DNA of 64,000 nt from Azolla caroliniana. Lineage: Eukaryota > Plantae > Polypodiophyta. The notes under the pieces are model-generated. The model had not been told where the DNA came from. It made no database searches and saw only the letters and a list, made by a program, of their open reading frames with translations. The stretch covers positions 8,618,001-8,682,000 of the forward strand of contig JBHGNT010000010.1 of NCBI GenBank assembly GCA_043228905.1, in the 5' to 3' direction. Made by a program: the position numbers and the translations under genes. Position 1 is the stretch's first letter. Each line of letters opens with the position of its first letter. Positions 6,000 to 50,933 of the stretch are shown here, one piece after another.

Positions 6000-6734
6000 T
6001 GTCGTAGTGTGAATAACACACTACGTGAAAGTTGTAAAATACTATATCCGATTTAAAGTACGTATAATAAATAAAATAAAATATTAAAAATATTTATTAC
6101 GTGCTTAGGGTAGGATTCGGCCCTTGTTCCTCCACGTAAACAAACCCCAACCTTACCATTGCACTAACTTATCCTAAGTGTTCTAAATATAGATTTAATG
6201 TGTATAAGACCTTCATTTACGCCTACCTTTATTAAAAGGAAAGTTATGCATTTTGTAGAATGCGTGAATACTTTATTTATAAGAAAAATGTACACCAATA
6301 AAAAATGACTTGTGCACATCTAGCGAGCATGAGCACTTTATTTAGGAAATAAAGGCATAGTGTAAAAAGGTAACTCATGCACATTTAGTGTGCATGAACA
6401 CTTTAGAAAAAAAAGCATGAAGCTATGCTTAGCCTCTTCCATCCTTATATAAGGAGGAGAGAATGATGTATGGGGGTTGTTGATTATTTTACAAGGTTTG
6501 ATTAATATAATATAATCGTGGCATTCACGAATTTGTTAACTATTTTTCTCTCTTAATCTGAGTACTCACTAATACACTATACTCGTGCGATTCACGAGTT
6601 TTTCATATCTTTCTTTCTTACAACATATTTCATATTCTTCATTGCTTTAGAATATTCTCATCTCCTAGTCCAAAACCTTAGTGGTTCACACCCTACTCAC
6701 GCAAACAATCCGGCGCCGAAAGGCACGACACAAG

Positions 6735-6752
6735 TGGTGAACCCGACGTGAA
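6735..6752 (+). promoter_or_regulatory. Primer binding site, tRNA-Trp(CCA)
   Basis: TGGTGAACCCGACGTGAA is the reverse complement of the plant tRNA-Trp 3' end ...TTCACGTCGGGTTCA-CCA. Confidence 0.85.
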
Positions 6753-6768
6753 AACGGGTGGCAAGGAG

Positions 6769-8804
6769 ATGGAAAATCAACCGGAGGCTAACAACATGAT
6801 GATGATGTTCGAGCGGATGGTTCTGGAACAACGTGCGATGTCGGAGATAGCGGCGGTAGTAGAGCGGTTCGTGCAACGGATCAGGCAATTCAACAAAAAG
6901 GACGTATCACGCTATCTTCGGGACTACAAGGCGGAAATGCTACGGTGCGGGATTTCGGAAGGACTACAAGTGGCATCCTTCAACCGGGTGGTTACCGACG
7001 GGCTTCAAGCAAGTATCCACGGGCTACGACAACAAATTTCGGCGTGGGAAGCGTTTGAAGAGGCACTAAAGACCATGTCTGCTATCGAGGACTCCTCCAA
7101 GGCAACACGAAGAGGATTCGAGGATTGGGTGGAAACGCCAGACAAGGGTATGAAGGTCCTCGATGTGTTTTCGGCATTCGAAAGTCAGTTCGGGAGGTTG
7201 TTTGCGAGAGATCCAGTTGTCCTCGCACCAGACAAAGTTATCATGTTCTTACGAGCCGTAGACCTCCGGAACCGGAAGGATCTTGGAGTGCTTCTAGGGG
7301 ACACGAATACCGAGAGTGGCCTCACCGAAACATGGGAAAGCATGCGGGATATTGTCGCGCGATACACAAAGAAGGGGAAATGGTTTGCCAACGAAGAAAA
7401 GAGGGTTTCAGAACCGATTGCGAAACCAAGATCCGGATCGGAAGACCATCAACCGCGGCCTCGGGAAGCTTCGACCGAGAAGGGAATCGACGCAACTACA
7501 GTGGAGCAGTTGCTGAAGGAGATGGAGAATCTAAAAATCGTGATGGTGAAGAAGTCGGATGACCATCCCACAAGTTCCAAGTATATGGACCATCGGTGCA
7601 TATGGTGCGATAGCACCGAACATGATCGAAGGGATTGCGACGAGCACAAGGAAGCGCTACGGCGAGATCTTATCTACTACGAGGGAAATTAGATTCATTC
7701 AATCGACTCTCGGAAGCCGCTCCGGCCGAACTTCCGAAAAGGCGGCATGAAGAAAGTCCTAGAGGAGGAAATAGCGGCGAAGAGCAATTACGCGACAACC
7801 GCAGGAATACGTGTCAGGGTGTCATCGGGAGCAAAGGTGTCTTTTTGGCCGGAAGTGCTAGAAAACATCGAGAAAACCGACTCCAACGAGATCCGAAGCA
7901 CCGTGGAAGGCATCGGAAGCTACGGGATGGGAGTGCCCTGTCGATAAGAATAGCGTATACACCCTATGTCAATTGCATGAAGTGTATGTGGATGAAAAAC
8001 GATGGCGCACGGATGATGCGGCCGGACCATCAAAGACACCGGAAAGCTGGAACTCCGGAGGGAAGGGAAAAAAAAAGGTGATTCCGGCATTCAAGCCCGC
8101 CTCGGACATCGAACAACAAACGGACTTGAAAAAGGTGTTCGAAGAGAGAATCCTTGACAGCCGGGTAAATTTTTCGCTTTGGGAACTACTCGGAATAGCA
8201 AAAAAAGAGTTCCGTGATCTTCTTGTGGATCTCATTAAAAGAAAAAGACAAACTACGGAGGAAAATGCGCCGATGGTGAATGCAAATACCGTTCTGATGA
8301 ACGACACCGAAGTGGAAGACGAGATTCTGAATTCCCACTATACAAAGCCACACTGGGTGCGTGCAACTACGGAGACTCCAGTCCGAATCGGCAGCATCAA
8401 AGAGCCCGTGCTAGCATTGATTGATCACGGAGATCAATTTGATGTCCAAAGAGTTCTACCGGAAGGGGAACTGGCCTATATACACTAACCATGGATGGAA
8501 GATCCGGCCAGCCACTAAAGCAACGGAAGATCTATTTGCGGCTTGTCCGGATGTGATGGTGAAGATCGGGGATGTCGAGATCGACCAAAATTTCCTCGTA
8601 CAAGAAGAGGTCTCACATTCCGTGATCCTCGGGCAACCCTTTATCATGGCTTCACAGATGGAGACAAAGGTGCTCGATAGCGGTGCGGCTTTTGCACAAA
8701 TTCGGAGCCAAAACGGAGGGAAATCCGTCCAATTCCTAATGGTGCTGGCAAATCATGAAAGGAACAAGAGAGAGCTCTTGTCCCAAACAAGAATGGATTT
8801 TTAG
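6769..8804 (+). pseudogene. gag: Gypsy gag-protease (disrupted)
   Basis: CIWCDSTEHDRRDC zinc knuckle; ALIDHG..EINLMS aspartic protease; premature stop at 7690-7692 and frameshifts. Confidence 0.85.
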
Positions 8805-11411
8805 AGCGGATTGTTGCGGACTGGGGAAGTGATAGTCCGAGAAGCCCTGATACCCCACACAGGAAGAAACCTCTTGGAGCAAAACAAGTACAAATCGGTC
8901 CGGATGGGGCATCTACGTACACGGTCGTAACTGGAGGAAAGAAGAAAGAATACCGAAAAGTGGAGGATAAGTTATGGTCGGCATCAATAATAAAAGAAGA
9001 CGAAGAAATCGTGGGAATAGTCAAAGAAGTGTTCTATGGGAGCATGTTACAACGGCTTGAAGAGCTCGCGGAAGATACAAGCCATGGAAACCGGGTAGTC
9101 CGAAAGTTCGTAGTCGACCATATTCATGATTGCGAGAAAGTGCTTCGAAAATTAGAAGATGTGCACCTAACACTTTCCGGTGAGAAATCGGCATTCGGGC
9201 AAGAAGAAATATTGGTAGTCGGACATCTATGTGGGCCCTATGGCCGAAGACCGTCACCAACCAAGATCGATGCGATTCAAGCTATGAAAGAAGTATGCGA
9301 GTCACAATCCGAAGTCCGAAGGTTTCTTGGAGCATGTGCGTTCTATCACATATGGATTCCGCACTATGCACATATTGCGGACCCACTCTATCACTTGTTG
9401 CGGAAGGGTAAGAAGTTCGAATGGAAACCGGAGCATACCAAAGCCGTGAAGAAGCTCAAGAAATCACTACGGAGGGCAAAAGCACTAAAGAAGCCGAACT
9501 ATGACCGATCGATCATAGTAACGGTTGACACAAGCCCAACCGGAATCGGATGGGTCATCAATCAAGCTGACTCGGATGGTTCGCGATATCCGATCCGATT
9601 CGGATCAAAGGTTCTAAACAAGAGGCAACGTGGATATGCACAAGTCAAAAGAGAATTATGGGGAGTCGTGTCGGCAATCAAATCGGATCGAGATTATTTG
9701 ATCGGAGCCCAAGTAGTGATCGAAACGGATTGTCTTCCAATACTCGGGATGATGCGGTGTTGCACGATACCGGATGTGGCTATGCTAAGATGGATTGCAT
9801 ATGTTAAGTCACTTAATCCAGAGGTACGACACATCTCCGGAAAAGACAACTGGTAGCGGATATGCTATCAAGGGCGTGGTTCGGAGATGACATAACCGAA
9901 TCCGATAATGAAGAAGTTTCCGAAGACTACTTTGCTTCGGAGCACATATGCTGGGTGAACGTAATCCGAGAATTCCGGGAAGAAGAATACGAGGGAGAAA
10001 GCTTGCTGATCGGGAAAGTGCTACAAGAAATCGAGGAATCATCGGACAATAAAGAGAAGAGAGCCGAGATCTGAAGTAAGAAGCGGAAAGTTCAAAAGTT
10101 CTTCTTGAGAAATGGATTAATATGGAGGGAGCTGAAAAGACCGGATGGCATACCACTTCGGGTAGTCAGGACGAAAGATCAACGAAACCGGATAATATCC
10201 GAATTTCACGGATCCGATTGGGCTGGACATCAAGGAACGTGGGCAACTTTTCTGAAAATCAAACAAAAATATTGGTGGAAGAACATGTACAAAGATATAA
10301 CGGAGTTCACGGAAAGCTACGAGAAGTGTCAAATCTACTCCGGAGTTCGACACCGAGATGAGTTACATCCGACATTATCACTAACAATCAACTTCAAATG
10401 GATGGTCGATATTGTAGCCATGCCAACCGGAATCGGACAAAAGAAGTACTTGGTGTTCGCTCGGGAAGATCTCACAAACCAAGTAGAAGGACGGGTGTTA
10501 CAAAGGAAAATGTGTTCTGCAGTATGCCTATTTCTTTTGGAGGAGGTGTGTTGCAGGTACGGGTGCGTAGGACAAGTGATTGCGGATCGGGGAGAACTCA
10601 ACTCTGATAAAGCTAAGGAATTCTTCACCAAACATGGAGTTCGGTTAACACTGACAACGGCATACAATCCGGAAGCCAACGGGAAGATTGAACCAGGACA
10701 TAGTCCGATCGTCAAAGCACTTGCGAAGGCATGCGATGGAAGGGTGAAGGATTGGTCGCAGATGCTTCCGTATGCACTATGGGCGGATCGGACGACGCAT
10801 AGCTCCGTAACCGGTTACATGCCGGTAGAACTCATGACCGGACAAGCACTAGTGATGCCAACGAAAACCGCGATCGCGACATGGACAGTGCTACCGTGGA
10901 AGGAAGAGATGAGCCGGGAAGAACTACTAGCGGTCCGGATACGACAACTAGAGGGAAGACTAGAAGACATAGCGGAAGCAATACGCCGACAACAAGAAGC
11001 GCGATTCCGGAATAAAAGCTGGTTCGACACAAAGCACCGACTACGACCGCGGAAATTGAAGAAGGGGATTGGGTGATTGTCTACGACAGTAATTTGGATC
11101 ATCAACATACAACGATGCGGAAATTCGCGAAAAGCTTGTCCGGGCCATATGAGGTTCGCAAAGTTTTCGACAACGGAACATACCGACTATGCAAGTTGGA
11201 TGAAATGATGCTACGAGTGCCTGAAGCCGGGAAACGGGTGAAGATTTTCAAGAAGCGGACTGATGAAGAACCCTATGTGATCCTAGACAAGACCGACAAA
11301 AAGGAGCAATCGGACGAAGATCGTGGTGATGCGGAAAACAAAGAAAGTGGATTACAACTCATAGTCGACTTAAGGGGAGAATCAGAGGAAGCTTCGGATG
11401 AAGGTGAATAG
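8798..11411 (+). pseudogene. pol: Gypsy pol remnant: RT C-terminus, RNase H, integrase
   Basis: VRRFLG, VDTSPTGIG..QVKRELWG..ETDC (RNase H); GHQG..W, VIADRGE..TAYNPEANGKIE (integrase); GPY motif. Confidence 0.9.
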
Positions 11412-12713
11412 CAAGCATCGGGGACTTCGGCACATACCAGAAGATGTGCGGGTTCGGAGGGGGCGAGTGTTGTAGTGTGAATCACACACTACGTGAAATA
11501 TGTAAAATACTATATCCGATTTAAAGTACGTATAACAAATAAAATAAAATATTAAAAATATTTATTACGTGCATAAAACAAGATTTAACCCCTGTACGTC
11601 CACGTAAACAAACCCCAACCTTACCATTGCACTAACTTATCCTAAGTCTTTTAGATATAGATTTAATACTTATAAGACCTTATTTACGCCTACCTTTATT
11701 AAAAGAAAAGTTATGAATTTTTTAGAATGCGTGAATACTTTATTTATAAGAAAAATGTACACCAATAAAAAATGACTTGTGCACATCTACCGAGCATGAC
11801 AACTATATTTAGGAAATAAAAGCATACTGTAAAAAGGCAACTCATGCACATTTAGTGTGCATAAACACTTTAGAAAGAAAAGCATGAAGCTATGCTTAGC
11901 CTCTTCCATCCTTATATAAGGAGGAGAGAATGATGTATGCGGGTGGTTGATTATTTTACAAGGGTTGATTAATATAATATAATCGTGGGATTCACGAATT
12001 TGTTAACTATTTTTCTCTCTTAATCTGAGTACTCACTAATACACTATACTCGTGGGATTCACGAGTTTTTCATATCTTTCTTTCTTAAAACCTATTTCAT
12101 ATTCTTCATTGCCTTAGAATATTCTCTTCTCCTAGTCCAAAACCTCAGTAGTTCCCACCCAACTCACGCAAACAATCCGGTGCCGAAAGGCACTACAACG
12201 TGTTCGATCCACATTCACCGCAAAAGGTAACAAATATTTTCGAGAGACATATTTGAATACATTATTTGACAAGAAATCTACTAATGAAATGAACATATAA
12301 ATGTCATGTTAATGTCCACATGTATTGTTCTTTTCGTTGACAATATGGTCATGTTTCATGCTAATTCCATCTTGAGCGCAATGTTTAAGGGGGAATAGAT
12401 GCGATTAGATATTAAACGTTAATTCAATTAATCAACTACACAACCACAACTAAACGTAAACCTAATCTATACTTGATAGTGAAACATTAATGCACGGTCA
12501 TTCAAGAATTTTGTTTATTAACTCAAAATAGGTGGAAATATATACACTCCCAAGTTGCAGGGATATATAAGTTGGGAGAACGTGAGATGGAATATATGAA
12601 CATCATTGTTCAAAACATGTTCATATTGATCTCTACTTGATCGCTCAACTATAATCCACAGTTATTCGAGAATATTGTTTTAGAACCATATAGACAGTAT
12701 TTAATGGGAAGTT

Positions 12714-12786
12714 GCGGGGATAGCTCAGTCGAGAGAGCGTCAGACTGAACATCTGAAAGTCATGTGTTCGATCCACGCTCACCTGA
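12714..12786 (+). pseudogene. tRNA-Phe(GAA) pseudogene
   Basis: Multiple substitutions; acceptor 3' strand damaged. Confidence 0.8.
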
Positions 12787-13279
12787 AAAGGTAAAAAATA
12801 TTTTCGAGAGACATATTTAATTACATTATTTGACAAGAAATCTACGAATGAAAGTAAGATATAAACCTCATGTTAATGTCGACATGTGATGTTCTTTTCG
12901 TTGACAATATGGTCATGTTTCATGCTAATTCCATCTTGACCGCACTGTTTAAGGGGGAATCCATGGGACTAGATATTAAACATTAATTCAATTAATGAAC
13001 TACACACCCACAACTAAACGTAATCCTAATCTCTACTTGATAGCAAAACATTAATGCACAGTCATTCGATATTTCAGTTTATTAACTCAAAATAGGTGGA
13101 AATATATACACTCGGAGGTTGCAAGGATATATAAGTTGGGAGAACGTGAGATTGAATATTTGAATATCATTGTTCAATACACATTCATGTTGACCTCTAG
13201 TTGATCGCTCAACTTTGATCCACAATTATTCGAAAATATGGTTTCTGAACCATTGAGTCGTTACCCTTGATGGGAAGTT

Positions 13280-13352
13280 GCGGGGATAGCTTAGTTGGCA
13301 GATTGTCAGACTGAACATCTGAAGCTCATGTGTTCGATCCACGTTCATCGCA
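13280..13352 (+). pseudogene. tRNA-Phe(GAA) pseudogene
   Basis: D-arm substitutions. Confidence 0.8.
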
Positions 13353-13843
13353 AAATATAACAGACATTTTCAAGAGAAATATTTGAATACATTATTTCAC
13401 AAGAATTATACGAAGCAAAGTAAGATATAAACCTCATGTTAATGTGGACATGTGTTGTTCTTTTCATTGACAATATGGTTATGTTTCATGCTAATTGCAT
13501 CTTGAGCCCAATGTTGAAGGGGGAATCAATGCGACTAGATATTAAACGTTAATTCAATTAATCAACTACACAACCACAACTAAACGTAATCGTAATCTAT
13601 ACTTGATAGTGAAACATTAATGCACGGTCATTCAAGAATTTTGTTTATTAACTCAAAATAGGTGGAAATATATACACTCCCAAGTTGTAGGGATATATAA
13701 GTTGGGAGAACGTGAGATGGAATATCTGAAAATCATTGTTCAAAACATGTTCATATTGATCTCTACTTGATTGCTCAATTATAATCCGCAGTTATTCGAG
13801 AATATTGTTTTAGAACCATATAGACAATATTTAATGGGAAGTT

Positions 13844-13853
13844 GCGGGGATAA

Positions 13854-13891
<38 letters not shown>

Positions 13892-13916
13892 ACGTGTTCG
13901 ATCCATGTTCACCGCA
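13844..13916 (+). tRNA. tRNA-Phe(GAA), near-intact
   Basis: 2 differences from the array consensus (G10A; C>T in the T stem). Confidence 0.8.
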
Positions 13917-14408
13917 AAAAGGTAACAAATATTTTCGAGAGACATATTTGAATACATTATTTGACAAGAAATCTACGAATGAAATGAACATGTAAAGCTC
14001 ATGTGAATGTCCACATGTGTTGTTCTTTTTGTTGGCAATATGGTCATGTTTCATGCTAATTCCATCTTGAGCGCAATGTTTAAGGGGGAATAAATGTGAT
14101 TAGATATTAAACATTAATTCAATTAATGAACTACACACCCACAATTAAACGTAATCCTAATCTCTACTTGATAGCGAAACATTAATGCACAATCATTTGA
14201 TATTTCAGTTTATTAACTCAAAATAGGTGGAAATATATACACTCGGAAGTTGCAAGGATATATAAGTTGGGAGAACATGAGATTGAATATTTGAATATCA
14301 TTGTTCAATACACGTTCATGTTGACCTCTAATTGATCGCTCAACATTAATCCACAGTTATTCGAGAATATGGTTTCTGAACCATAGAATCATTACTTCAT
14401 GGGAAGCT

Positions 14409-14481
14409 GTGGGGATAGCTCAGGTTGGAGAACGTTAGACTGAAGATCTAAAGGTTACGTCTTCGATCCACGTTCACCGCC
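14409..14481 (+). pseudogene. tRNA-Phe(GAA) pseudogene
   Basis: Many substitutions; anticodon retained. Confidence 0.8.
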
Positions 14482-14972
14482 AAAAATAACAAACATTTTC
14501 GAGCGACATATTTGAATACATTATTTGACATGAATTCTACGAATCAAAGTAAGATATAAACCTCATGTTAATGTGGACATGTGTTGTTCTTGTTATTGAC
14601 AATATGGTTATGTTTCATGCTAATTCCATCTTGAGCCCAATGTTGAAGGGGGAATCAATGCGACTAGATATTAAACGTTAATTCGATTAATCAACTACAC
14701 AACCACAACTAAACCTAATCCTAATCTCTACTTGATAGTAAAACATTAATGCATAGTCATTCAAGAATTTTGTTTATTAACTCAAAATAGGTGGAAATAT
14801 ATACACTTGGAAGTTGCAAGGATATATAAATTGGGAGAACGTGAGATCGAATATTTGAATATCATTGTTCAATACACGTTCATGTTGACGTCTAGTTGAT
14901 CGCTCAACTTTAATCCACAGTTATTCGAGAATGTGGTTTCTGAACCATAGAGTCATTATTGGATGGGAAGTT

Positions 14973-15045
14973 GCGGGGATAGCTTAGTTGGGAGAGCGTT
15001 AGACTGAAGATCTGAAGGTCACGTGTTCGATCCATGTTCACCGCA
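14973..15045 (+). tRNA. tRNA-Phe(GAA), near-intact
   Basis: Three C>T changes; A and B boxes retained. Confidence 0.8.
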
Positions 15046-15121
15046 AAAAATAACAAACATTTTCGAGAGACATATTTGAATACTTTATTTGACAAGAAGT
15101 CTACGAATGAAATGAACATAT

Positions 15122-15270
15122 TGTGGTGTGCATGTGTTCCTTTGTGCCACCCTTTTAGCACACCCTTTTTAGCCAAGCCAACCCAAATGGGTTCCGTTGT
15201 ATCAGCTATAAATTGATTAAGAAGTAAGAAGCTAAGTAGACTGGTTTTGATCTGTTATGTGCATTTCACA
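15122..15270 (+). mobile_element. Short solo LTR in the array spacer (same family as LTR 43706-43906)
   Basis: TGTGGTG...CATTTCACA with 4-bp TSD ATAT; internally deleted relative to the 43706 copy. Confidence 0.85.
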
Positions 15271-15682
15271 ATATGAACCTCATGTTAATGTCGACATGTG
15301 TTGTTCTTTTCGTTGACAGTATGGTCATGTTTTATGCTAATTCCAGCTTGAGTGCAATGTTTAAGGGGGAATCGATGTGACTAGATATTAAACGTTAATT
15401 CAATTAATCAACTACACAACCACAACTAAACCTAATCCTAAGCTCTACTTGATAGTGAAACATTAATGCACAGTGAATTTTGTTTATTAACTCAAAATAG
15501 GTGGAAATATATACACTCAAAAGTTGCAAGGATATATAAGTTGGGATAAAGTGAGATTGAATATTTCAACATCATTGTTCAATACACGTTCATGTTCACG
15601 TCTAGTTGATCGCTCAACTTTAATCCAGAGTTATTTGAGAATATTGTTTTAGAACCATATAGATAGTATGTCATGGGAAGTT

Positions 15683-15755
15683 GCGGGGATAGATAAATTG
15701 GGAGAGCGTCAGATTGAACATCTAAACGTCACGTGTTCGATCCACGTTCACCGCA
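15683..15755 (+). pseudogene. tRNA-Phe(GAA) pseudogene
   Basis: D-arm and anticodon-arm substitutions. Confidence 0.8.
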
Positions 15756-16246
15756 AAAGGCAAGAAACACTTTCGAGAGACACATTTGCATGCATTATTT
15801 GACAAGAATTCTACGAATGAAATGAAGATATAAAGCTCATGTTAATGTTGACATGTGTTGTTATTTTCGTTGACAATATGGTCATACTTCCTGCTAATTC
15901 CATGCTGAGCGCAATGTTGAAGGGGGAATCGATGCGACTAGATATTAAACGTTAATTCAATTAATCAACTACACAACCACAACTAAACCTAATCCTAATC
16001 TCTACTGGATAGTGAAACATTAATGCACGGTCATTCAAGAATTTTGTTTATTAACTCAAAATAGGTGGAAATATATACACTCCCAAGTTGCAGGGATATA
16101 TACGTTGGGAGAACGTGAGATTCAATATCTGAACATGATTGTTCAATACACGTTCATATTGATCTCTACTTGATCATTCAACTTTAATCCACAGTTATAA
16201 GAGAATATTGTTTTAGACCCATATAGACAGTATTTAATGGGAAGTT

Positions 16247-16298
16247 GTGGGGATAGCTCAGTTGGGAGAGCGTTAGACTGAAGATCTGAAGGTCATGT
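16247..16298 (+). pseudogene. tRNA-Phe 5' part truncated by an LTR
   Basis: ...GAAGGTCATGT|TGTCGTAG, the same nucleotide position as the 6000 insertion. Confidence 0.85.
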
Positions 16299-16778
16299 TG
16301 TCGTAGCGTGAATCACACACTACGTGAAATATGTAAATTACTTTCTCCGATTTAAAGTATGTATAATAAATAAAATAAAATATTAAAAATATTTATTACG
16401 TACTTAGGGCAAGATTCGAACGTTGTTCCTCCACCTAAACAAACCCCAACTTTACCATTGCACTAACTTGTCCTAAGTGTTTTAAATATAGATTTAATAC
16501 GTATAAGACCTTCATTTATGCCTACCTTTATTAAAAGGAAAGTCATGCATTTTGTAGAATGTGTGAATACTTTATTTATAAGAAAAATGTACACCAATAA
16601 AAAATGACTTGTGCACATCTAGCGAGCATGATAACTATATTTAGGAAATGAAAGCATACTGTAAAAGGCAACTCATGCACATTTAGTGTGCATGAACACT
16701 TTAGAAAAAAAGCATGAAGCTATGCTTAGCCTCTTCCATCCTTATATAAGGAGGAGAGAATGATGTATGGGGGTTTTT
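16299..16778 (+). mobile_element. Truncated LTR, same family as 6000-6730
   Basis: Colinear with ~6000-6480, then joins an array spacer at a TTGTT microhomology. Confidence 0.9.
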
Positions 16779-16884
16779 GTTCAATACACGTTGATGTTGA
16801 CGTCTAGTTGATCGTTGAACATTAATCCATGGTTATTGGAGAATTTTGTTTCTGAACCATATAGACAGTATTTGATGGGAAGCT

Positions 16885-16957
16885 GCAGGGATAGCTCCGT
16901 TGGGAGACCGTTAGACTGAAGATCTGAAGGTCACGTGTTTGATCCACGTGCATTGCA
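16885..16957 (+). pseudogene. tRNA-Phe(GAA) pseudogene
   Basis: Shares diagnostic variants with the 21581 copy. Confidence 0.8.
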
Positions 16958-17443
16958 AAAGGTAACAAACACTTTCAAGAGACATATTTGAATACATTAT
17001 TTGACAAGAATTCTTCCAATGAATTGAACATATTAACCTCATGTTAATGTCGACAAGGCTTGTTGTTTTTGTTGACAATATGGTCATGTTTAATACTAAT
17101 TCTATCTTAAGCGCAATGTTTAAGGGGGGAGTCGATGAGACTAAATATTCAACGTTAATCGAATTAATCAACTACACAACCACAACGAAATATAATCCTA
17201 ATCTCTACTTGATCGCAAAAATTTAATGCACACTCACTGGAGATTATTGTTTATTAACCCAAAATAGGTGGAAATATACACACTCACAAGTTGGAGGGAT
17301 ATATAAGTTGGGAGAGCGTGAGATTGAATATCTCAATATCATTGTTCAATACACGTTCATGTTTAAGGCGTAGTGGATGAGACTAGATATCTAAACGTAA
17401 TTTTTATCTCTGGTTGATAGTTCAAATTTAATCCACAATTATT

Positions 17444-17563
17444 GAGTAGTTGGTGGCCTTATGGCCTAAGCAAGTATTGTGAGCGAATAATCTTCGACGA
17501 TTCAATAATTAGGTTAACTAGTATGGTATCTAAAGAATAATTCAAAAGAGAATAGTGGAGTAC

Positions 17564-17602
<39 letters not shown>

Positions 17603-17997
17603 CAGAATTGAAATTCAATTTATGTAAGAAATAGGTGTTATGGTAAACATGTTTCGCTCGATATGAGCTCATCCGTGCTAAAGACCATACAAAAATGTGA
17701 GAGGCTTATATAGGGGAAGAGGAAAGAAGAGAGAATGGGGAGTGGTGGGGATGGAAGACAGACAGAGAGAGAGAGCGGGGGTTTTGAATGTGTATAAAGG
17801 AGGATGTGGGAGTTAGGGAGGTAGTTAAAGTAGAGTAGAGAGGGATAGCTTAATGATTTTGATGGGAAGGGATGATTTTGGAGATTTGTTATATTTAGTT
17901 ATAGTAGATAGATGCCAATGATAAGTGTGACATTTTAATGGGGATTTGGGGATCCAAGATATTTAGTTTTGACTAGCTAAGAATAGAGTGATTTTGA
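17444..17997 (-). mobile_element. Solo pseudo-LTR (3' end) of the Penelope-like element
   Basis: Homologous to 22140-22966 with one sub-repeat fewer; carries a hammerhead motif at 17634-17686. Confidence 0.8.
17634..17686 (-). ncRNA. Minimal type I hammerhead-ribozyme-like motif
   Basis: GGTCTTTAGCA-CGGATGA-GCTCatatcGAGC-GAAA-CATG-TT-TACCATAACACC; core has G in place of U4. Confidence 0.7.
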
Positions 17998-18316
17998 GTA
18001 CACAACTACAACTAAACGTAATCCTAATATCTTCTCCATCTCGAAACTTTCATGCACACTAATTTGAGATTTTTGTTTACTAACATAGAATAGGTGGAAA
18101 TATACACACTCGCAAGTTGCAGCAATAGATTAGTTGGGAGAGTGTCAGATTGAATATCTGAATATCATTGTTCGATATACTTTCATGTTTAAGGGGGCGT
18201 GAATGACAGTAGATATCTCAACGTAATCTTGATCTCTAGTTGATTACTCAACTTTAATCCATAGTTATTCGAGAATTTTGTTTTTGAACCATATAAACAA
18301 TATTTCATGGGAAGCT

Positions 18317-18389
18317 GGGGGGATAGGTCAGTTGCGAGAGCGTTAGACTGAAGATCTGAAGGTCACGTGTTCCATCCTCGTTCACCGGA
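18317..18389 (+). pseudogene. tRNA-Phe(GAA) pseudogene
   Basis: Multiple substitutions. Confidence 0.8.
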
Positions 18390-18921
18390 AAAGGTAACAA
18401 ACACTATCGAGAGACATTTAAATACATTATTTGACAAGAATTCTACGAATGAAATGAACATATAAACCTGATGTTCATGTCGATAATCCTTGTTCTTTTC
18501 GTTGACAATATCGTCATGTTTCATGCTAATTCCATCTTTGAGCGGAATGTTTAAGGGGGGAGTCGATCATGCTACATATTCAACGTTAATTGAATTAATC
18601 AACTACACAACCACAACTAAAGGTAATCTTAATCTCTACTAGATCGCGAAATTTTCATGCAGACTCATTCGAGATTTTTGTTTATTAACACAAAATAGAT
18701 GGAAATATACACACTCGCAAGTTGCAGGGATGGATCAGTTAGGAGAGCATCAGATTGAATATCTGAATATCATTGTTCGATACACCTTCGTGTTTAAGGG
18801 GGAGTGGATGAGACTAGATATCTAAACGTAATGTTGATCTCTAGTTGATCGTTGAACATTAATCCACAATTATTTGGGAATTTTGTTTGTGAACCATATA
18901 GATAGTATTTAATGGGAAGTT

Positions 18922-18995
18922 TCGGTGATAGCTTAGTTGGGAGAGCGTCAGATTGAAGATCTGAAGGTCATGTGTTCGATGCACGTTTTAATCAC
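18922..18995 (+). pseudogene. tRNA-Phe(GAA) pseudogene
   Basis: Acceptor 3' strand degenerate. Confidence 0.75.
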
Positions 18996-19530
18996 AAAAG
19001 GCAACAAATACTTGTGTCAAGAGACACATTTGAATACATTATTTTCAAGAAATCTACGAATAAAATGAACATATAAACATCTTATTAATGTCGACAAGTC
19101 TTGTCCACATGGGTAACAATATGGTCATGTTTCATGCTAATTCCATTTTGAGCGCAATGTTTAAAGGGGATTCGATGCGACTACATATTAAACATTAATT
19201 AAATTAATCAACTACACAACCACAACTAAACGTAATTGTAATCTCTACTTGATCGCGAAACATTAATGCACACTCATTTAAGATTTTTGTTTATTAACTA
19301 AGAATAGGTGGAAATATACACACTCGCAAGTTGCAGGGATAGATCAATTGGGAGAGCATATGATCGAATATTTGAATATCATTGTTCGATACACCTTCAT
19401 GTTTAAGGGGGAGTGGATAAGACTAGATGTCTAAACGTAATATTGATCTCTAGTTGATCGCTCAACTTTAATTCACTGTTATTCGAGAATTTTGTTTCTG
19501 AACCATATGGAGAGTATTTGATGGGAAGTT

Positions 19531-19603
19531 GCGTTCATCGCTCAGTTGGGAGCGCGTCAGACTGAAGATCTGAAGGTCACGTGTTCGATTCACGTTCACT
19601 GCA
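19531..19603 (+). pseudogene. tRNA-Phe(GAA) pseudogene
   Basis: Acceptor 5' strand mutated (GCGTTCA). Confidence 0.8.
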
Positions 19604-20130
19604 AAAGATAACAAACACTTTCAATAGAAATATTTGAATGCATTATTAGACAAGAATTCTACCAATGAAATGAACATATAAACCTCATGTTAATGTCCAC
19701 AAGGCTTGTTCGTTTCGTGGACAATATGGTCATGTTTCATGCTAATTCTATCTTCAGTGCAATGTTTAGGGGGGACTCGATGAGACTAAATATTCAATGT
19801 TAATTGAATTAATCAACTACACAACCACAAGTAAACGTAATCCTAATGTCTACTTGATCGCGAAACTTTCATGCACACTCATTCGAGATTTTCGTTTATT
19901 AACACAAAATAGGTGGAAATATACACACTCACAAGTTGCAGGGCTAGATCAATTGGGAAAGCATCGGTGGGAATATCAGAATATCATTGTTCAATACATG
20001 TTTATGTTCAATGCATTGTTGAATACATGTATAAACGTAATGTTGATGTCTAGTTGATCGTTGCAATTTAATCTAAAATTATTCCGGAATTTTGTTTATG
20101 AACCATATAGATAGTATTTGATAGGAAGAT

Positions 20131-20205
20131 TCGGGGATACCTCAGTTCGGAGAGCGTGAGACTCAACATCTGAAGGTCACGTGTTAGATCCTCGTTTTCA
20201 ACGCA
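20131..20205 (+). pseudogene. tRNA-Phe-derived pseudogene (anticodon mutated to CAA)
   Basis: Heavily degenerate copy. Confidence 0.7.
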
Positions 20206-20411
20206 AAAGGCAACAAACACTTGTGTCAAGAGACACATTAGAATGCATTATTTGACAAGAAATCTACGAATAAAATGAGCATATAAACATCCTGTTAATG
20301 TCGACAAGTCTTGTCCATTTGGGTAACAATATGGTCATGCTTCATACTAAATCCATTTTGAGCACAATGTTTAAATGGAATCGATGCAACTAGATATTTG
20401 ATGGGAAATTT

Positions 20412-43500: not shown

Positions 43501-43906
43501 CGAATCACTCATGCACCGATGGATCAGCCCATTCACCGTGGTTCGTGCAATTAAATCCACGACTTACTTGCTCTGACGCGATTCCAATGGTCGCTTCACC
43601 TCCGCCCATGTTGCCCGCATCAAGCCCTATGCTACCCCAAGCCCATCTTCTAGCGCTCGTCCTTTCCCCATGTCGTAAAAATCCTTGTTTCTCTCAGGGG
43701 GGAAATGTGGTGTCCCTTGGATGCAAGTGCATGCCTTCATGTTGGGTGTGCATGTGTTCCTTTGTGCCCCTTTTAGCATACCCTTGTTAGGACGCATGTA
43801 GCTAAGTAGAGCCAACCCAAATGGGTACCTTTGTACGACTATAAATTGAATAGGAAGTAAGAAGCTAAGCAAGCTGCTTTTGGATTCCATTTATGTGCAT
43901 TTCACA
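40560..43906 (+). mobile_element. 5'-truncated Gypsy element (PR-RT-RH-INT, PPT, 201-bp 3' LTR)
   Basis: ILFDSGSS protease; YLDDILI RT; DASNHGLG RNase H; YHPQTNGLTER integrase; PPT AGGGGGGAAA ~43696-43705; LTR 43706-43906. Confidence 0.9.
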
Positions 43907-44039
43907 GTATGTTATTAACATTATAAAGGTTTATTTTATTTTCATTACGTATTTATCGTATTGTAGACTTTTAATGTGAAGCTTTCGTACTTCACAACAT
44001 CCACCCCCTCAAGACCTGCGCATCCTCCGGCATGTGGCA

Positions 44040-47000
44040 CTATCTTTCATCTTCATGTTGATGTATTGGAGGAGGTTCAAGCTCAAACCTTTTCTTAAAT
44101 ACTTTTATCCTCTTTCCAGCTACCACGTTTAGGATTAGTGTCCCATCCAATTCACTAAGCTTATAAGTAAAGTTAGCATATACTTTTCTTACTACGTAAG
44201 GCCCAAAGCATCTTTCAGCAAACTTGCGGACCGTGCTATGTTGATTATCTAAACTGCTATCATACACAAGTACCCAATCCCCTTCTTCTATCTTCTTATG
44301 TTGAATTTTGTGAGTTTTATCAAAACGAATTTTATTCTTCAATCGAGCCTCCAAAATCGTTGGGCTACTAATTCTACATCTTCAGGCCGACGCTCTAATT
44401 GTTGAATTCGCAAAGCCAACAATTCTTCTCTGCTCAACTCTTCTCTCCATGGAATAGATGTCCATGACATAATTGACCCTTCTATTGGCATGATGGGCTT
44501 TTGGCCAAGTATCAATTCAGCTGACATATATCCTATTACCGAACTATGTGTTGTTCGATATGCCCATAGTGCATACGGTAGCATGCGTGGCCAATCTCTT
44601 ATTTTACCTTTACAACTTTTCACGATTGCCTTAACTATTGGGCTATGTCCTCTTTCAATCTTCCCATTGGCTTCTGGATTATATGCAGTTGTAAGTGATA
44701 ATTTGACCCCTATCTGGCTAAAGAATTCTCTAGCTTCATGAAAGTCAAGTTCTCCTCTATCTGCAATTATTTTACCAACACACCCATAACGACATATTAC
44801 ATCTTCTAAAAATAATTTACATACAACTCTAGTTGTTTTTTGTCGTAGTGGTCTTCCTTCTATTTGGTTTGTAAGGTCTTCTCTTGCTAGTACTAAATAT
44901 CGCATTTGACCTTCCTCAAGTGGCATTGTCACTAGATCAACCATCCATTTATAATGCATTGATGATGAATATGTTGGTTTTAACTCATCTCGATATCGAA
45001 TAGTTGAATACCTTTGACACATTTCACAAGTTTCCACAAATTTCATTACATCTTTATACATATGTGGCCACCAATACTTCTCTTTTAACTTCATAAATGT
45101 CGCCCATATGCCTCTATGTCCTGCCCACAAACTATCATGAAATTCAGTCATTAATTTGCTTTTAATATCATCCTTACAAATGACTCGAAGAGGATTTTCA
45201 GTTGGCCTTTTTGGGCGCCGCCATAGATGCCCTTCATATAAAAAAATTTGAATTCTCTTCTTCGAAATTCATTTAGTTGTTTCTTTGACCATGATGGGTT
45301 GGCTTCTTGATTCTTTAAAAAGTTTCCTATTTCTAACCATTTTCCTTCATATTCTGTGTCTTTGAACATTGTGCTTACATTAAACTCATCATGAGGCTTA
45401 CTAGATATTTGATGAGCAACTCGATGGCTTGTAGTTGCCCAATTCTTATCTTCAGTTTGCATCACATTTTCATTTATGAACCTTGCCCTTGACAGCATAT
45501 CTGCAACTGGGTTGTCTTTTCCCTTTACATGCCGCAATTCTGGGTTCATGGTTCTGATGTATGCAATCCACCGAAACATTGCAATATCTAGTGTCGTGCA
45601 ACTTGCTACCATTCCGATGAGTGGCAAACAATCAGTTTCAACCACTACATTTGCTCCGATCAAGTAATCTCTATCTGTTTTTTAATGCAGTAAGCAAACC
45701 CCACAATTCTCATTTAACTTGTACATAATTTCTTTGTCTATCCTTTAATATCTTTGCTCCAAACCTGATAGCATATTGATGTTGGTCTTCATCTTCTTGG
45801 TTGATAACCCAACCGATCCCAATTGGGATAGTATCAATTGTCACTATAATTGGTTTTTCACCTTTGTAGTCTAGTTGACGAAGAACTGGAGCTTTCAATA
45901 ATGCTTCTTTCAGCTGTTGAACAACTTGTGTATGTTCATCAGTCCAAATAAACTTCTTCCCTTTTCTTAAAAGTTGGTAGAGAGGATCTGAGACACGTGC
46001 AAAGTGTGGTAACCAAATATGATAAAACACACATGCACCCAAAAATCTTCTCACCTCTGTTACTGAGTCGCAAACTTCCTTCATATTTTGTATTGCGTTA
46101 ATTTTGATCGGTGAGGGCTTCCTCCCATACCACCCACACATATGACCAACTATTAGAACTTCGTTTTGCCCAAAGTTAGACTTTGTTCTTGATAGTGTCA
46201 AATGTACCTGCTCAAGCTTATTTAAAATACTTTCACAATCATTAATGTGATCAATCACAAACTTTCTGCAACCATTTCCAACCATAGTCTCATCTTTCTC
46301 TCTTTCTAAGCATCCCTTAATAGGAATATCATCTAAAAATGGCATAGTTACCTTTGGGATGTACTCATGTAGAACCTTGTTCATTGCATTCATCATATGA
46401 GCAACTGAATTTGTCGCATCTTGAGGTAGAGTGCACATTCGAACCAACCCAATTGGTGTTTTCATTGTTGTGATATTGTGACTATCAATTGTTAGTTGAA
46501 ATTGGTCATATCCTGAATATAGGTCTCCCATAGAGCAAATTGCTCTCCCAGCATAAGCTTCCGCAAATTCATCACCGATCGGGCCGATTCCTGCATTTCG
46601 GATTGTGACTTTGTTGACTGGTTGTAGATCTTGAATGAATCTTAGAGAACCATCTTTCTTTGGAACTGTGAACCATCGGTTGGAGTATGGTGCATTTGAA
46701 GGCTCTAAAATCTTCATCTTGACTTTATCCTTCAACAACTCCAACAATTGAGGTAATCGAGCTCTTGGTACTGCAATAGGTTTAAAATTCCAAGGAATAT
46801 GAGGGATAGTAAATATCACCATTGGTGTTACCACCTTTGGATCTACACAACCAATCTCCTCGGCTTTGAATGCGAACGCTTTCCCATGCCTAAAGATCAT
46901 GTCTTTGAAAGTCATGATCTCCGATTGTAGAAGAAATGCACCCCCTCCGACTCTTAAGTTATTTATTGTATCCGAAGTGCAGTGATGTTCAATCTTCTCT

Positions 47001-47569
47001 ATTGGTTGAAGCATAGGCTCAATTGATGTTGCCTTTATCTTCTCTTCGCTACCAATAGGTAATGGTACTACAACAGGTTTAATCTTTTTATCTATTGTTT
47101 TATATTTTGTGTTACATAAACCTTCTACTTCTTCATATTTACAAGTATACTTATCAATTTCATAATACATATCAATTGAGTTTACATGTATCTTTCTAAC
47201 ATTCTCATCATCTTCTTTCAAATACACTTCTAACTCTTCTAAAGTATTTGCAAAAGAAATATCTTCCATAACACTTTCAATCTGCTCTTCCATTTCAAGT
47301 ACTCCATTATCCTTCAATGTCTGCTGAAACAGATTAACATTCTTTTTCAAGTTCCTCTTGCATTCATACATCCTAGTCACACATATAGCACCACTTTCAG
47401 AAACATGAAATGACTTATACATATGTTGTAATGCCCTATATGAGGGTCTTTTAATAATGGGACTATTGCAACCCTCACTCACAATAGTCCTAGTCAAAAA
47501 CCTGATTATCAAAATCATCACAATCCTTTGGTATTGAATGATCACGAAGCTCTTGCTTGTTCCTCTCAT
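44040..47569 (-). pseudogene. pol: Gypsy RT-RNase H-integrase
   Basis: RFIQDLQPVN, DLYSGYDQF, PFLDDIPI, ETDCLPL, TAYNPEANGKIERGH, GPY. Confidence 0.9.
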
Positions 47570-49664
47570 GATTTGGGCGAACTGTCATAAATTGTACAGT
47601 TCGTCGTCCATCTTGGCTACGGATTTTCGCATAGGCAGAACCATTGTCGAGGACTTTGGTCTCCATCTGTACCGTTGTAATGTATGGTTGCCCCAAGATT
47701 ATTGGATAGGTAGATCCTTCCTGTACAAAGAAATGTTGATCTACCTCTATATCACCAATAGTAACCTTTACATTTGGGCATGCACCAAATAAATCTTCCG
47801 TGACTGATGTGGCAGCTTTTACTTGCCAACCATGTTGAGTATCAATTGGCCATCTACCTTTCTTGTAAAAATCAGCACTCATTATATTTATTTTAGAACC
47901 ATGATGAATAAGTGCCATCACGGGGTCTGGAACATTTCCAATCTTCACACGATGCTCAATAGTGGCTCTTGCCCAACATTTGCGAGAGTAATGGCTTCTT
48001 ACATCTATTGAATTTATCATTGAGGTCGATGCATGTTGAGAGTCAACAATGATATTGTTTGACTCGTTGCTCACCACTTCATATGCCACCTTCGGATTTC
48101 TCTCTTTCACCTGCTCATTTACTTGCTTCTTTCTTCGCACAATACCAATTATTTCATCATGAAATTCCTTTTTTGCAATACCTAACACTTCTCTTAGTGT
48201 CAATTCTACTTGACTGTCGAGTATTCTTGTTTCTAAACCTTTCTTTAAATCTATATCCTTTTCAATATGAGACATTAATTTGAATGAAGGACCAGATTTA
48301 CCTTTTTCGACTTTTGCGTCCATCTCTTTTCTTTTGCTTTCTCTTGTCTCATGCTTTTTTGTTGAGCCAATCTCATCGTCCGACCTTTTCCTTTTTTCTT
48401 CCACTATCACCTCATGCTCTTGGTGTTCTGCCATCTGAGCATAGACCGTCATAGCATCTACTGGAACATCCCATCCAGTGCTTTTCCTTATAGAATCTCC
48501 AACAACACAAAGGTCTTCCATCTTCATCTTTTGCTTTTGTGCAGTACTTACAACCTTCTCCCAGAATGATGATCGGGATGGCATGTCATCGAGGCGCATT
48601 CCTACCATTGCCGAGTAGTACATTGCGGAAGCCTTCTTTGCTTCAGCTTCTTCAAATTTAACCTTAACACCACCATCACCAAAGCTCTTTGTAAGTGGAC
48701 TTCTAGTTTCAGTTAAATAAATGTTACCATTTTTCCAATACACCAAGTCTCGATTTTCCATGTCTTTATATTCTTCACAATCACGTAGACGATGTTCGAG
48801 ACTATCGCACCACATGCATCGGGGTCGAAATGGTTCCCTTGACCTCAAAGTTTGACCATTCTCAAGCTTTGCCACTTAAATTGTTAGATCTTTCATACTT
48901 TGAACTAAATAATCAAGAAAAGATTCACTCTTAGTTTCAATCATTTCTCGTGGTTGATGGACCATTTCGTGTGACGGTTCTCGAACAAGTCTTTGAACTT
49001 CGATGTTTTGCTCAAGCCGATTTGTGATTCCTATAGGTGAAATTTGCAACATTGCACCATTCCTTTGCATTCTTTTCATAAATTTATTACAAGCATTTGT
49101 TACCTCATTCCAATCTGCAGTTATACCATCCTCGGTATTTGGTACTTCAAGCATAAATTCCAATTCTTTTCTATATCTCTTGTCAACTGCCTGCAAAAAT
49201 AAAGCAACCTTTTGCCAAGACAAAGAATTTCTTTCTTCTGGATTTAAGTGTCCATACAATCTATCAAACTCTTTTTTCGTGTCAGCCACAGATAATCCTT
49301 TATTTTCTTTTAGGACCCATTCATGGAATGAACGCATAGTAACGTAAGAGAAATCCTCACGAGCATATTCAGACACAAGGGCTTCTTTGAATGCCTTCCA
49401 ATCCAAACTATGCAATGTTTGTATTTCATGAATTCTATCTCTTAATTCCATGTCCACTAATTTATAAAAGTTTGCTATCATATTGACTTCATTCATACCA
49501 GACATTTCCATTTCATCATAATATATATTCACATACTTCGAAATATTTGTGCCATCAAACATACCAATCTTCTCTCGAACTTCTCGTAAGGCATGAATTA
49601 ATCGATCTTGATTCAACTTTTCAATAAACAACATTACCGGATCCATTGTACTCATACTTGCCAT
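47490..49664 (-). pseudogene. gag: Gypsy gag-protease
   Basis: CMWCDSLEHRLRDC knuckle; protease with mutated active site; one in-frame stop at 48876-48878. Confidence 0.85.
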
Positions 49665-50933
49665 GTTGATGTTGATCTTTACTTTAGATGTCTCTTCTAC
49701 TTCCCCATTTCACGTCGGGTTCACCAGATTGTGTCGTGGCGTGGCTCGCCTAGAAGCGTACCATTGCATAGACAAACGATATCGTCAAAGTGAGGAAGGA
49801 ATCATTGGAATCATTTAAAACGAAAACAAGACATATACTTATATACATTATAAGTATAGGCTAAATAGTAAGGTGTGAACGCCATAAGGTGGAGGTTGTT
49901 GGTTCAAATCCTCTTTTGCCCATGTAATTTGTGCATGTATTATATTACATGGTTTAGATTATAAAATACTACTTCAAATCATATATTATTTTGTAAATGA
50001 TTAGTATAGGTTAAATGGTAACCTTTGAGTGTCATAAGGTAGGGTTTATTAGTTCAAGTCCTCTCTTGTCCATGTAATATAATAGATATATTTTATTTTT
50101 GTCTCTACCTATATTGTATAATATTATCATAGTATGTTATTAACATTATAAAGGTTTATTTTATTTTCATTACGTATTTATCTTATTGTAGACTTTTAAT
50201 GTGAAGATTTCATACTTCACAACATCGGCGGCTGCCCGAACCGGGAATAAGTATATCTTGGTGGCTATAGATTACTGCACCAACTGGGTAGGAGCGAAAG
50301 CACTACGCGAAAATACTGCAGCAATCACGGAGAAATTCCTTTACGAACATATCTGGTGTGGTTTTGGCTACCCTATTGAGCTCATCAGTGACCAAGGGAG
50401 TCACTTTCGGAATACGGTCATCAGCGAACTGACCCAACACTACATCGTGGTCCACAAAAAGAGTACGTCATAGTACCCATAGGCAAATGGCTTGGCCGAA
50501 TCCACGAACAAAACATTACAGACTATCCTCAAACAGATAGTCAATGAGAATAAAATAGATTGGGGTACCAAATTGCACAGTGTAGTATGGGCATATCGAA
50601 CCAGCTATAAGACCAACATACAATCCACACCTTTCCGGCCAGCATTTGGGCTGGAGCCCTTAATGCCAGTCGAATTCTAGGTACCCAGGCTGGGGATTCA
50701 AGTACGAGACCGGCTGCTAGAGGAAAAATCCGAACGAATACTGTTAAAACAACGGTTAGATCTAAACGAAACACGGTTACGCAATATGGCCTTATTGGAA
50801 TAGGAACAACGGTAGCGCAAAGCATTCGTGGGCCGACATCAGCATGCGCGTGAAAAGGATTTTACGATCGGGAAAGCGGTATTAGTTTTTCAAACACACA
50901 TGGGGCAAATGCAAGGAAAATTAAGATTCCGCT

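What the first reader, a model, noticed from the sequence alone, without database searches (positions are those of the whole stretch)
6103..50061. Antisense tRNA-like Pol III cassettes in the U3 of four different LTR families
Seen: A-box/B-box pairs at tRNA-like spacing, always upstream of the LTR TATA and opposite to LTR transcription. (1) 6103-6180, ~11570-11650 and 16402-16479, minus strand: TAGTGCAATGG...GTTCGAATC, enclosed by an 11/12-bp inverted repeat ACTTAGGGCAAG/CTTGTCCTAAGT in the 16.4 kb copy. (2) 29351-29405, minus: TATTACAATGG...GGTTCAATTCC. (3) 35699-35751, plus: TGGCTTAATGG...GGTTCGAATC. (4) Two tandem copies, 49857-49911 and 50007-50061, plus: TAGG(C/T)TAAAT(A/G)G...(G/A)GTTCAA(A/G)TCC. 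Three families share TGGAGG before the B box; the anticodon arm is not conserved. Established: Cassandra TRIMs carry 5S Pol III promoters in LTRs, and tDNA/TFIIIC sites act as chromatin barriers. Inference: a lineage-wide LTR module serving as an insulator against heterochromatin spreading or a source of antisense Pol III RNA.
Basis: partly seen in the sequence, partly recalled or inferred. Interest (0 to 1): 0.78.

Follow-up and report, generated by a model that had tools for sequence, protein, structure and literature searches.

The report
Backward tRNA promoters in gypsy LTRs
In this probably moss genome, thousands of end-repeats of two distant groups of protein-coding gypsy jumping genes carry a tRNA-gene promoter that faces away from the element's own promoter and has lost the tRNA fold but kept its promoter boxes and spacing, so it likely helps the element keep its promoter open, although binding and transcription are untested.

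Summary
The cassettes are real and go far beyond the window. LTRs picked by primer site carry it in 10/12 self-priming, 10/25 Trp, 0/59 Met, 0/10 Arg cases. The A-to-B distance is 44-45 nt in all 21 clusters while cloverleaf stems are lost, which points to selection on a DNA promoter in replicating elements. After insertion the boxes decay like the rest of the LTR (faster in one family), so there is no sign of host-level insulation. Corrections: two of three family-1 copies have broken B boxes; TGGAGG is private in family 4; at least three Trp families add a sense cassette downstream of the TATA. Closest known: Helenus TRIMs (non-autonomous). This scan noted similar cassettes in fungal LTRs. 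Best reading: an element-selected TFIIIC/Pol III module aiding the LTR promoter (0.5). New variant of a known kind.

The parts
6000..6730 (+). 5' LTR of family-1 gypsy element (6000-12197, TSD ACGT, inserted inside a tRNA-Phe gene); TATA about 6446; tRNA-Trp PBS about 6735-6751
6103..6180 (-). family-1 cassette: A box from 6166, degenerate B box about 6113-6123, T5 run about 30 nt past the B box
11468..12197 (+). 3' LTR of family-1 element (93% to 5' LTR), PPT just before it
11570..11650 (-). family-1 cassette in the 3' LTR, A box from 11634, degenerate B box
16299..16776 (+). truncated family-1 LTR in a duplicated block of the tRNA array
16402..16479 (-). family-1 cassette with GTTCGAATC B box and 11/12 inverted repeat
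29319..29797 (+). solo LTR of family 2 (self-priming chromovirus type; TSD TCAAA); TTCTAGAA-rich array about 29465-29590, TATA about 29604, self-primer sequence 29638-29649
29351..29405 (-). family-2 cassette, B box about 33 nt from the LTR 5' end
35300..36549 (-). solo LTR of family 3 (Trp-primed; TSD ACGT); TATA 35512-35518
35699..35751 (+). family-3 cassette, intact A and B boxes, T5 run 35781-35785
49732..50226 (-). 5' LTR of family-4 element (43902-50226), about 500 bp deleted at 49814/49815; tRNA-Trp PBS 49710-49726
49857..49911 (+). family-4 cassette, proximal tandem unit
50007..50061 (+). family-4 cassette, distal tandem unit

Best explanation
Two distant lineages of protein-coding Ty3/gypsy retrotransposons carry a tRNA-derived A/B-box promoter antisense in the U3 part of the LTR, upstream of the Pol II TATA box, and it is likely kept by selection on replicating elements because TFIIIC/TFIIIB bound there would hold the LTR promoter open against silencing. 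Shown: position, orientation, tRNA ancestry, fixed 44-45 nt A-to-B distance, loss of the cloverleaf, higher identity in the boxes than around them between subfamilies, restriction to two gypsy lineages, and neutral-or-faster decay after insertion. Inferred: TFIIIC binds; TFIIIB is placed on the TATA side of the cassette, divergent from Pol II so that the two polymerases would not collide; U3 is copied from the 3' LTR into both LTRs of every daughter, so a working cassette would favour daughters whose 5' promoter escapes silencing; any short antisense RNA (about 90-110 nt where a T-run follows) would be a by-product.
For: 67 PWM hits >=20 bits in 1,284,000 bp; null 0,0,0,1,0 in five shuffles of the first 684 kb against 31 observed. 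66 of 67 in gypsy U3, all antisense, 21 clusters (clusters 10, 12, 14, 15 placed by likeness or by eye, the rest by PBS/PPT). LTRs picked by primer site alone: 10/12 self-priming, 10/25 Trp, 0/59 Met, 0/10 Arg. Integrase tree of 63 rows puts the carriers in two well supported, distant clades with non-carrier clades beside them; chromodomain PF00385 E 2e-12 next to one carrier LTR. A PWM from the genome's own tRNA genes scores the printed cassettes 14.9-32.4 bits; 99th percentile of shuffled 700-nt windows 13.8. Between subfamilies, A and B regions are 0.75/0.77 identical against 0.52 between and 0.43/0.49 outside (7 chromovirus subfamilies), 0.86/0.89 against 0.59 and 0.48/0.65 (family-1 group). 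The family-1 B-box CpG is the fastest-decaying site after insertion, yet 5 of 12 LTR pairs are discordant there, so many parents had CG. tDNA barriers depend on A/B boxes and TFIIIC/TFIIIB in yeast (PMC7990762, passages).
Against: No binding, transcript or chromatin data. One Trp-primed subclade (7 rows, support 90/81; 6 with an LTR seen, all scoring <=7 bits) lacks the cassette yet spread, and Met- and Arg-primed elements lack it: it is dispensable. Inserted copies show no protection: boxes are not less polymorphic than the rest in 4 of 4 families (p 0.09-0.88); cassette CpGs in family 1 are lost faster than other LTR CpGs (18/46 vs 52/348 alleles, p 3e-4, 13 of 17 pairs usable), the opposite of a methylation-free barrier; in four other families the rate is the same (8/68 vs 53/548, p 0.52). 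Genome-wide only 77 of 202 family-1 B boxes keep C56. The box-versus-flank contrast is partly circular (subfamilies were found by their boxes), weak for the B box in the family-3 group (0.67 vs 0.57-0.60) and absent in family-4 tandem units. Most chromovirus LTRs have no T4 terminator inside the LTR.
Confidence: 0.5

Rival explanations
1. Passive relic: tRNA or SINE heads inserted into ancestral LTRs and have been copied along since; the apparent box conservation comes from the way the cassettes were found.
For: Neutral decay in inserted copies; loss in one Trp subclade and degeneration in the L132-type family; 125 of 202 family-1 B boxes carry C56T; Kojima proposes SINE insertion into LTRs as the origin of Helenus (PMC10886601, text parts 1-4).
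Against: Same strand and same LTR region in 66 of 66 cases over two distant lineages; no indel in the A-B spacer in 21 clusters while LTR flanks are only 43-57% alike; 10 of 12 self-priming LTRs picked without the boxes have it; no free-standing SINE with this head among the 67 hits.
Confidence: 0.2
2. The product is what matters: Pol III makes an antisense RNA over U3 (running out of the 5' LTR, or into PPT/integrase from the 3' LTR) that pairs with the element's RNA or feeds small-RNA-directed methylation, so the element damps itself.
For: Both boxes and exact spacing are kept; T4-T5 runs lie 10-52 nt past the B box in most Trp-primed clusters; family-1 cassette CpGs are a deamination hot spot with a strand bias (TG 125 vs CA 35, p 5e-13), the direction reported for transcription-associated mutation on the non-template strand (10.1101/229906, passages).
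Against: No conserved RNA fold; terminators absent from most chromovirus LTRs; the hot spot is not repeated in four other families and the bias is reversed in the family-3 group (13 TG vs 25 CA in the first 100 of 913 matches, counted by eye, partly inherited TCA subfamilies).
Confidence: 0.18
3. The cassette acts in integration: TFIIIC on the cDNA end steers it to Pol III loci, or inserted LTRs become landing pads for tRNA-seeking elements.
For: In chromoviruses the B box sits within about 5-45 nt of the LTR end; the family-1 element in the window sits inside a tRNA-Phe gene; an earlier AI note of this scan reports such landing pads in a fungus (e1-10420559, not tested here).
Against: Only 3 of 120 family loci (about 3.2 kb each) hold a tRNA gene, two of them the window's own array; the Trp families show an ACG-rich 4-bp target that explains the tRNA hit; I saw no pile-up of insertions upstream of a cassette in the loci read, but did not count this formally.
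Confidence: 0.07

Closest known systems
Helenus TRIMs (TRIMp3; Kojima 2024, PMC10886601; text parts 1-4 of 6 and searched passages read, supplements not seen)
   Same: tRNA-derived sequence inside the LTR, conserved around boxes A and B, no working tRNA; the only plant example is from Selaginella.
   Different: Helenus is non-coding and 311-1263 bp, and its Pol III promoter is proposed to transcribe the element. Here the elements are 5-7 kb with gag-pol, keep a Pol II TATA, and the U3 cassette points away from the element. The paper says 'not a few LTRs' in Repbase hit tRNA but analysed only TRIMs, so such autonomous LTRs may sit undescribed in Repbase; it gives no orientation in the text searched.
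Cassandra and Ajax TRIMs (as described in PMC10886601)
   Same: Pol III internal promoter carried in both LTRs and copied by reverse transcription.
   Different: 5S-derived (A, IE, C boxes), non-autonomous; Cassandra transcription starts in the 5S part and makes the element's RNA.
tDNA/TFIIIC chromatin barriers of yeasts (PMC7990762, passages) and B2 SINE boundaries (PMC8136502, abstract and passages)
   Same: A/B-box DNA as a possible boundary next to a Pol II promoter; mobile in the B2 case.
   Different: Here the boxes are built into the retrotransposon's own promoter; no barrier activity has been shown, and B2 boundaries limited active, not silent, chromatin.
Plant Tcn1 chromoviruses and Phygy non-chromoviruses (Neumann 2019, PMC6317226, passages; Novikova 2010, PMC2864245, passages)
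   Same: Host elements match the descriptions: self-priming with a chromodomain; short non-chromovirus whose polyprotein fills the interior.
   Different: No A/B-box cassette is mentioned in the passages found; clade membership was not tested against reference sequences.

Membership tests
Helenus (TRIMp3) | tRNA-derived sequence with conserved boxes A and B inside the LTRs | tested here: met
Helenus (TRIMp3) | Non-autonomous TRIM, about 0.3-1.3 kb, no coding region | tested here: not met
   5-7 kb elements with RT, RNase H and integrase domains
Helenus (TRIMp3) | Pol III promoter placed to transcribe the element itself | tested here: not met
   U3 cassettes are antisense in 66 of 66 cases; a sense cassette exists in only some Trp families, downstream of a TATA
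Cassandra/Ajax | 5S rRNA-derived promoter | tested here: not met
   Rfam scan of the window gave no 5S match; the cassettes match tRNA boxes
functional tRNA gene | Cloverleaf with four paired stems | tested here: not met
   not called by ARAGORN or Rfam; acceptor and anticodon stems near chance
type 2 Pol III promoter | A box and B box at tRNA spacing | tested here: met
   T8-G53 = 44-45 nt in 21 of 21 clusters; degenerate in the 6.1 and 11.6 kb copies
type 2 Pol III promoter | Oligo-T terminator downstream | tested here: inconclusive
   T4 found in 14 of 22 cluster representatives within the stretch examined, absent in 8, mostly chromovirus
type 2 Pol III promoter / tDNA barrier | TFIIIC/TFIIIB binding, Pol III transcript, block to silencing | not testable with these tools
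   only three low-share contig runs were listed, none on record as RNA
tRNA-derived SINE | Free-standing copies with own tail and target duplication | tested here: not met
   66 of 67 hits in 1.28 Mb lie in LTRs, 1 in a pol ORF; TE-rich regions only
Tcn1 chromovirus (family 2 lineage) | Chromodomain after integrase; self-priming PBS | tested here: met
   PF00385 in L193; PBS complementary to the LTR sequence about 30 nt past the TATA
Tcn1 / Phygy clades | Phylogenetic placement with reference elements | not tested
   no reference sequences were available; the tree holds this genome's elements only

The most novel reading that the evidence does not exclude
Two distant gypsy lineages of a moss have built outward-facing Pol III promoters into their LTRs (in some families one on each side of the TATA box) as a self-carried anti-silencing device, seeding the genome with thousands of TFIIIC sites that would also shape host chromatin; similar cassettes in fungal LTRs would make this a recurrent retrotransposon strategy.
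Probability: 0.3. Interest if true: 0.8.

Novelty: new variant of a known kind. Interest (0 to 1): 0.6.

Why it matters
Autonomous LTR retrotransposons are taken to rely on Pol II signals alone, with Pol III promoters confined to small non-autonomous TRIMs. Here three exact patterns alone match 2,228, 913 and 202 B-box sites, about 2,900 of them with an intact core if the listed samples are typical. If TFIIIC binds them, they are a mobile, testable case of tDNA-type insulation or antisense control inside a retrotransposon promoter, with natural controls in the same genome (a sister subclade without the cassette, copies with broken B boxes), and they would also confound tRNA/SINE annotation and Pol III ChIP in such plants.

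Tried and rejected
Expression: no RNA holder listed; contigs of three low-share runs laid on the family-3 LTR cover the cassette in two runs at about 95% identity but cannot show strand, start or level, so they are not used. Working tRNA or conserved RNA fold: rejected. One parent tRNA: not assignable; best ungapped matches of the spacer were 15-20 of 33 nt to several isotypes in an incomplete tRNA set. Free SINE source: none seen. Protection from methylation-type decay: not found (the L096/L104 pair lies on opposite strands and is not one element, and one family-3 pair gave no alignment). The family-1 mutation hot spot as a general sign of Pol III transcription: not replicated (10 TG vs 3 CA in the first 100 of 2,228 chromovirus matches, counted by eye). 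tRNA-gene targeting: 3 of 120 loci. Single versus repeated origin of the cassette: undecided; no clade test was run and the tree carries a long-branch warning. Literature: nine full-text searches found no description of antisense A/B-box cassettes in LTRs of autonomous plant gypsy elements; passages of PMC7466625 and PMC2864245 do not mention one. Subscription papers, Repbase entries and supplements were not seen.
Full report
Setting. The window is a repeat-rich stretch of a 523-Mb plant genome built on a tandem tRNA-Phe array with 564-606 bp units into which retrotransposons have inserted. The host is probably a moss or club moss: one lineage here is a self-priming chromovirus, a type that Neumann et al. 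report only from those plants (PMC6317226, passages). This is inference; no reference sequences were compared.

The observation. The boxes are at the stated places. A strict A+B regex gives 3 pairs against 0.07 expected from 60 shuffles. Full-length relatives fix the LTR ends and direction: family 1 (LTRs 6000-6730 and 11468-12197, +), family 3 (solo LTR 35300-36549, -) and family 4 (43902-50226, -) have a tRNA-Trp-type PBS (isotype named from recall) and pol regions 65-71% alike; family 2 (solo LTR 29319-29797, +) has no tRNA PBS but a site complementary to the LTR sequence about 30 nt past its TATA, the self-priming layout. In each the cassette lies in U3, about 150-280 nt upstream of the TATA, on the opposite strand. 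Corrections: the B boxes at 6.1 and 11.6 kb are broken; the 16.3 kb LTR lies in a duplicated array block; TGGAGG in family 4 is private to the window copy; the window's family-4 LTR has lost about 500 bp, including the TATA and a sense A/B pair that 28 of the 30 family-4 loci fetched show.

How far it extends. I fetched 1,284,000 bp of the genome (window plus 122 stretches of 10 kb from TE-rich regions chosen near known copies, so not a random sample). A matrix trained on nine cassettes finds 67 hits at >=20 bits; on the first 684 kb it found 31 against 0, 0, 0, 1, 0 in five shuffles. The hits form 22 clusters; 21 (66 hits) lie antisense in U3 of gypsy LTRs and one lies antisense inside a chromovirus pol frame. 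Six clusters are tandem units of family-4-like LTRs, leaving about 16 subfamilies: 7 self-priming chromovirus and about 9 Trp-primed. To avoid circularity I also picked LTRs by primer site alone: the cassette is present in 10 of 12 self-priming, 10 of 25 Trp, 0 of 59 Met and 0 of 10 Arg cases (some negatives are truncated or interrupted LTRs). An integrase tree of 63 rows places carriers in a Trp clade (23 rows, 100/100) and a self-priming clade (23 rows, 98/96) that are far apart, with non-carrier clades beside them; a 7-row Trp subclade (90/81) lacks the cassette (midpoint root, long-branch warning, no clade test). A chromodomain (PF00385, E 2e-12) precedes one carrier LTR. Exact patterns count 2,228, 913 and 202 sites for three subfamilies. 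Relatives at 70-95% identity occur in metagenome contigs of unknown host.

What is conserved. A matrix built only from the genome's tRNA genes scores the printed cassettes at 14.9-32.4 bits against a 99th-percentile null of 13.8, and many keep an AGGTC-like variable loop, so they are tRNA-derived. The T8-G53 distance is 44 or 45 nt in 21 of 21 clusters although nine spacings were allowed, while the acceptor, D, anticodon and T stems pair at 2.0/7, 2.5/4, 2.2/5 and 3.4/5 against 6.4, 3.7, 4.5 and 4.9 in 147 tRNA calls. Between subfamilies the A and B regions are more alike than the spacer and flanks in the chromovirus group (0.75, 0.77 vs 0.52 and 0.43, 0.49) and the family-1 group (0.86, 0.89 vs 0.59 and 0.48, 0.65), less clearly in the family-3 group (0.78, 0.67 vs 0.57-0.60) and not in the family-4 tandem units. 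This is the pattern of a DNA promoter, not of a structured RNA. T4 runs follow the B box in 14 of 22 representatives, mostly Trp-primed; most chromovirus cassettes run off the LTR end without one. A second, sense-oriented A/B pair lies downstream of the TATA in at least three Trp families (family 4, L169 type, L170 type; 18.9-28.5 bits), so there the Pol II core promoter is flanked by two outward-facing cassettes.

What happens after insertion. Among copies, box positions are no less polymorphic than the rest of the LTR in 4 of 4 families (p 0.09-0.88). In family 1 the three cassette CpGs are the three fastest-decaying of 21 in 5'/3' LTR pairs (18/46 vs 52/348 alleles lost, p 3e-4; 13 of 17 pairs usable), and genome-wide the B box reads TTCG 42, TTTG 125, TTCA 35 (strand bias p 5e-13). 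Five of 12 pairs differ between their two LTRs at this site, so much of the loss is post-insertion. In four other families the cassette CpGs decay at the LTR rate (8/68 vs 53/548, p 0.52). So inserted copies are not held by host selection and are not shielded from methylation-type decay; whatever keeps the boxes acts on the elements that replicate.

Mechanism. From established knowledge, TFIIIC binds A and B boxes and places TFIIIB upstream, tDNAs are nucleosome-free, and barrier activity in yeast needs the boxes (PMC7990762, passages). With the cassette antisense in U3, TFIIIB would sit on the TATA side and Pol III would move away from Pol II. U3 of the 3' LTR is copied into both LTRs of each daughter, so a module that helps a new 5' LTR stay open would be favoured at the level of the element even if most copies are later silenced. 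I give this 0.5. A passive relic (0.2) is favoured by neutral decay and by lineages that do without it, but does not explain one orientation in 66 of 66 cases and no indels across diverged LTRs. An antisense RNA that damps the element (0.18) fits the family-1 hot spot and strand bias (direction as in 10.1101/229906, passages) but these are not repeated elsewhere. A role in targeting (0.07) has little support: 3 of 120 family loci hold a tRNA gene. No RNA or binding data were available.

Comparison with what is known. Helenus TRIMs carry tRNA-derived boxes in their LTRs (PMC10886601, parts 1-4 of 6 and passages) but are short, non-coding and thought to be transcribed from that promoter; the paper argues autonomous partners must use Pol II, and notes other tRNA-like LTR hits in Repbase that it did not analyse. 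Cassandra and Ajax are 5S-derived. The elements here fail the Helenus membership test on size, coding capacity and orientation, while sharing its LTR-borne tRNA promoter. Nine literature searches found no description of this arrangement in autonomous plant gypsy elements; subscription papers, Repbase and supplements were not seen. Earlier AI notes of this scan report backward tRNA-like cassettes in fungal LTRs (not tested here), and none for this genome or sequence in the look-ups made.

Verdict. Real, lineage-wide, tRNA-derived and probably selected in replicating elements; function untested. New variant of a known kind, interest 0.6.

Noticed in passing
window 2700-6000, 12150-22400, 26700-27160, 61900-64000; L133-L142, L131: Large tandem tRNA-Phe(GAA) array (units about 550-606 bp) running over 100 kb upstream; ARAGORN calls anticodon variants Leu(CAA), Leu(TAA) and Phe(AAA) on the Phe body. 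Other isotypes (Lys, Ile) also form arrays elsewhere in the genome.
   Followed up: partly
L128 LTR positions about 648-702; L169/L170 (-) 391; L170 (-) 4033: Sense-oriented A/B-box pair downstream of the TATA in at least three Trp-primed families; in the L169 type it shares spacer letters with the antisense cassette, by eye, as if an inverted duplicate.
   Followed up: partly
L206 (-) 7069 and L204 (+) 9022: A/B-like pair antisense inside the protease-RT linker of a chromovirus pol frame, followed by a T-run; 26 bits on the tRNA-only matrix.
   Followed up: no
window 29465-29590: Arrays of TTCTAGAA (heat-shock-element-like, motif recalled) between the cassette and the TATA in self-priming chromovirus LTRs.
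   Followed up: no
window 29642-29652: The self-primer sequence of family 2 itself contains a B-box-like GGTTCAACGCC on the sense strand; it varies in sister subfamilies, so possibly chance.
   Followed up: no
L181 (-) near 5469 element, 3' LTR: A chromovirus LTR that begins with a T-arm-like hairpin, the B box ending at the LTR terminus.
   Followed up: no
window 15117-15275 and 43738-43911: A short LTR-like piece in the tRNA array is 77% alike to the 3' LTR of the element at about 40-43.9 kb, which abuts the truncated family-4 3' LTR.
   Followed up: no
window 37095; L227-L228, L205: Arg-primed gypsy elements with no polypurine tract before the 3' LTR, the feature that several earlier notes on this genome describe.
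   Followed up: no
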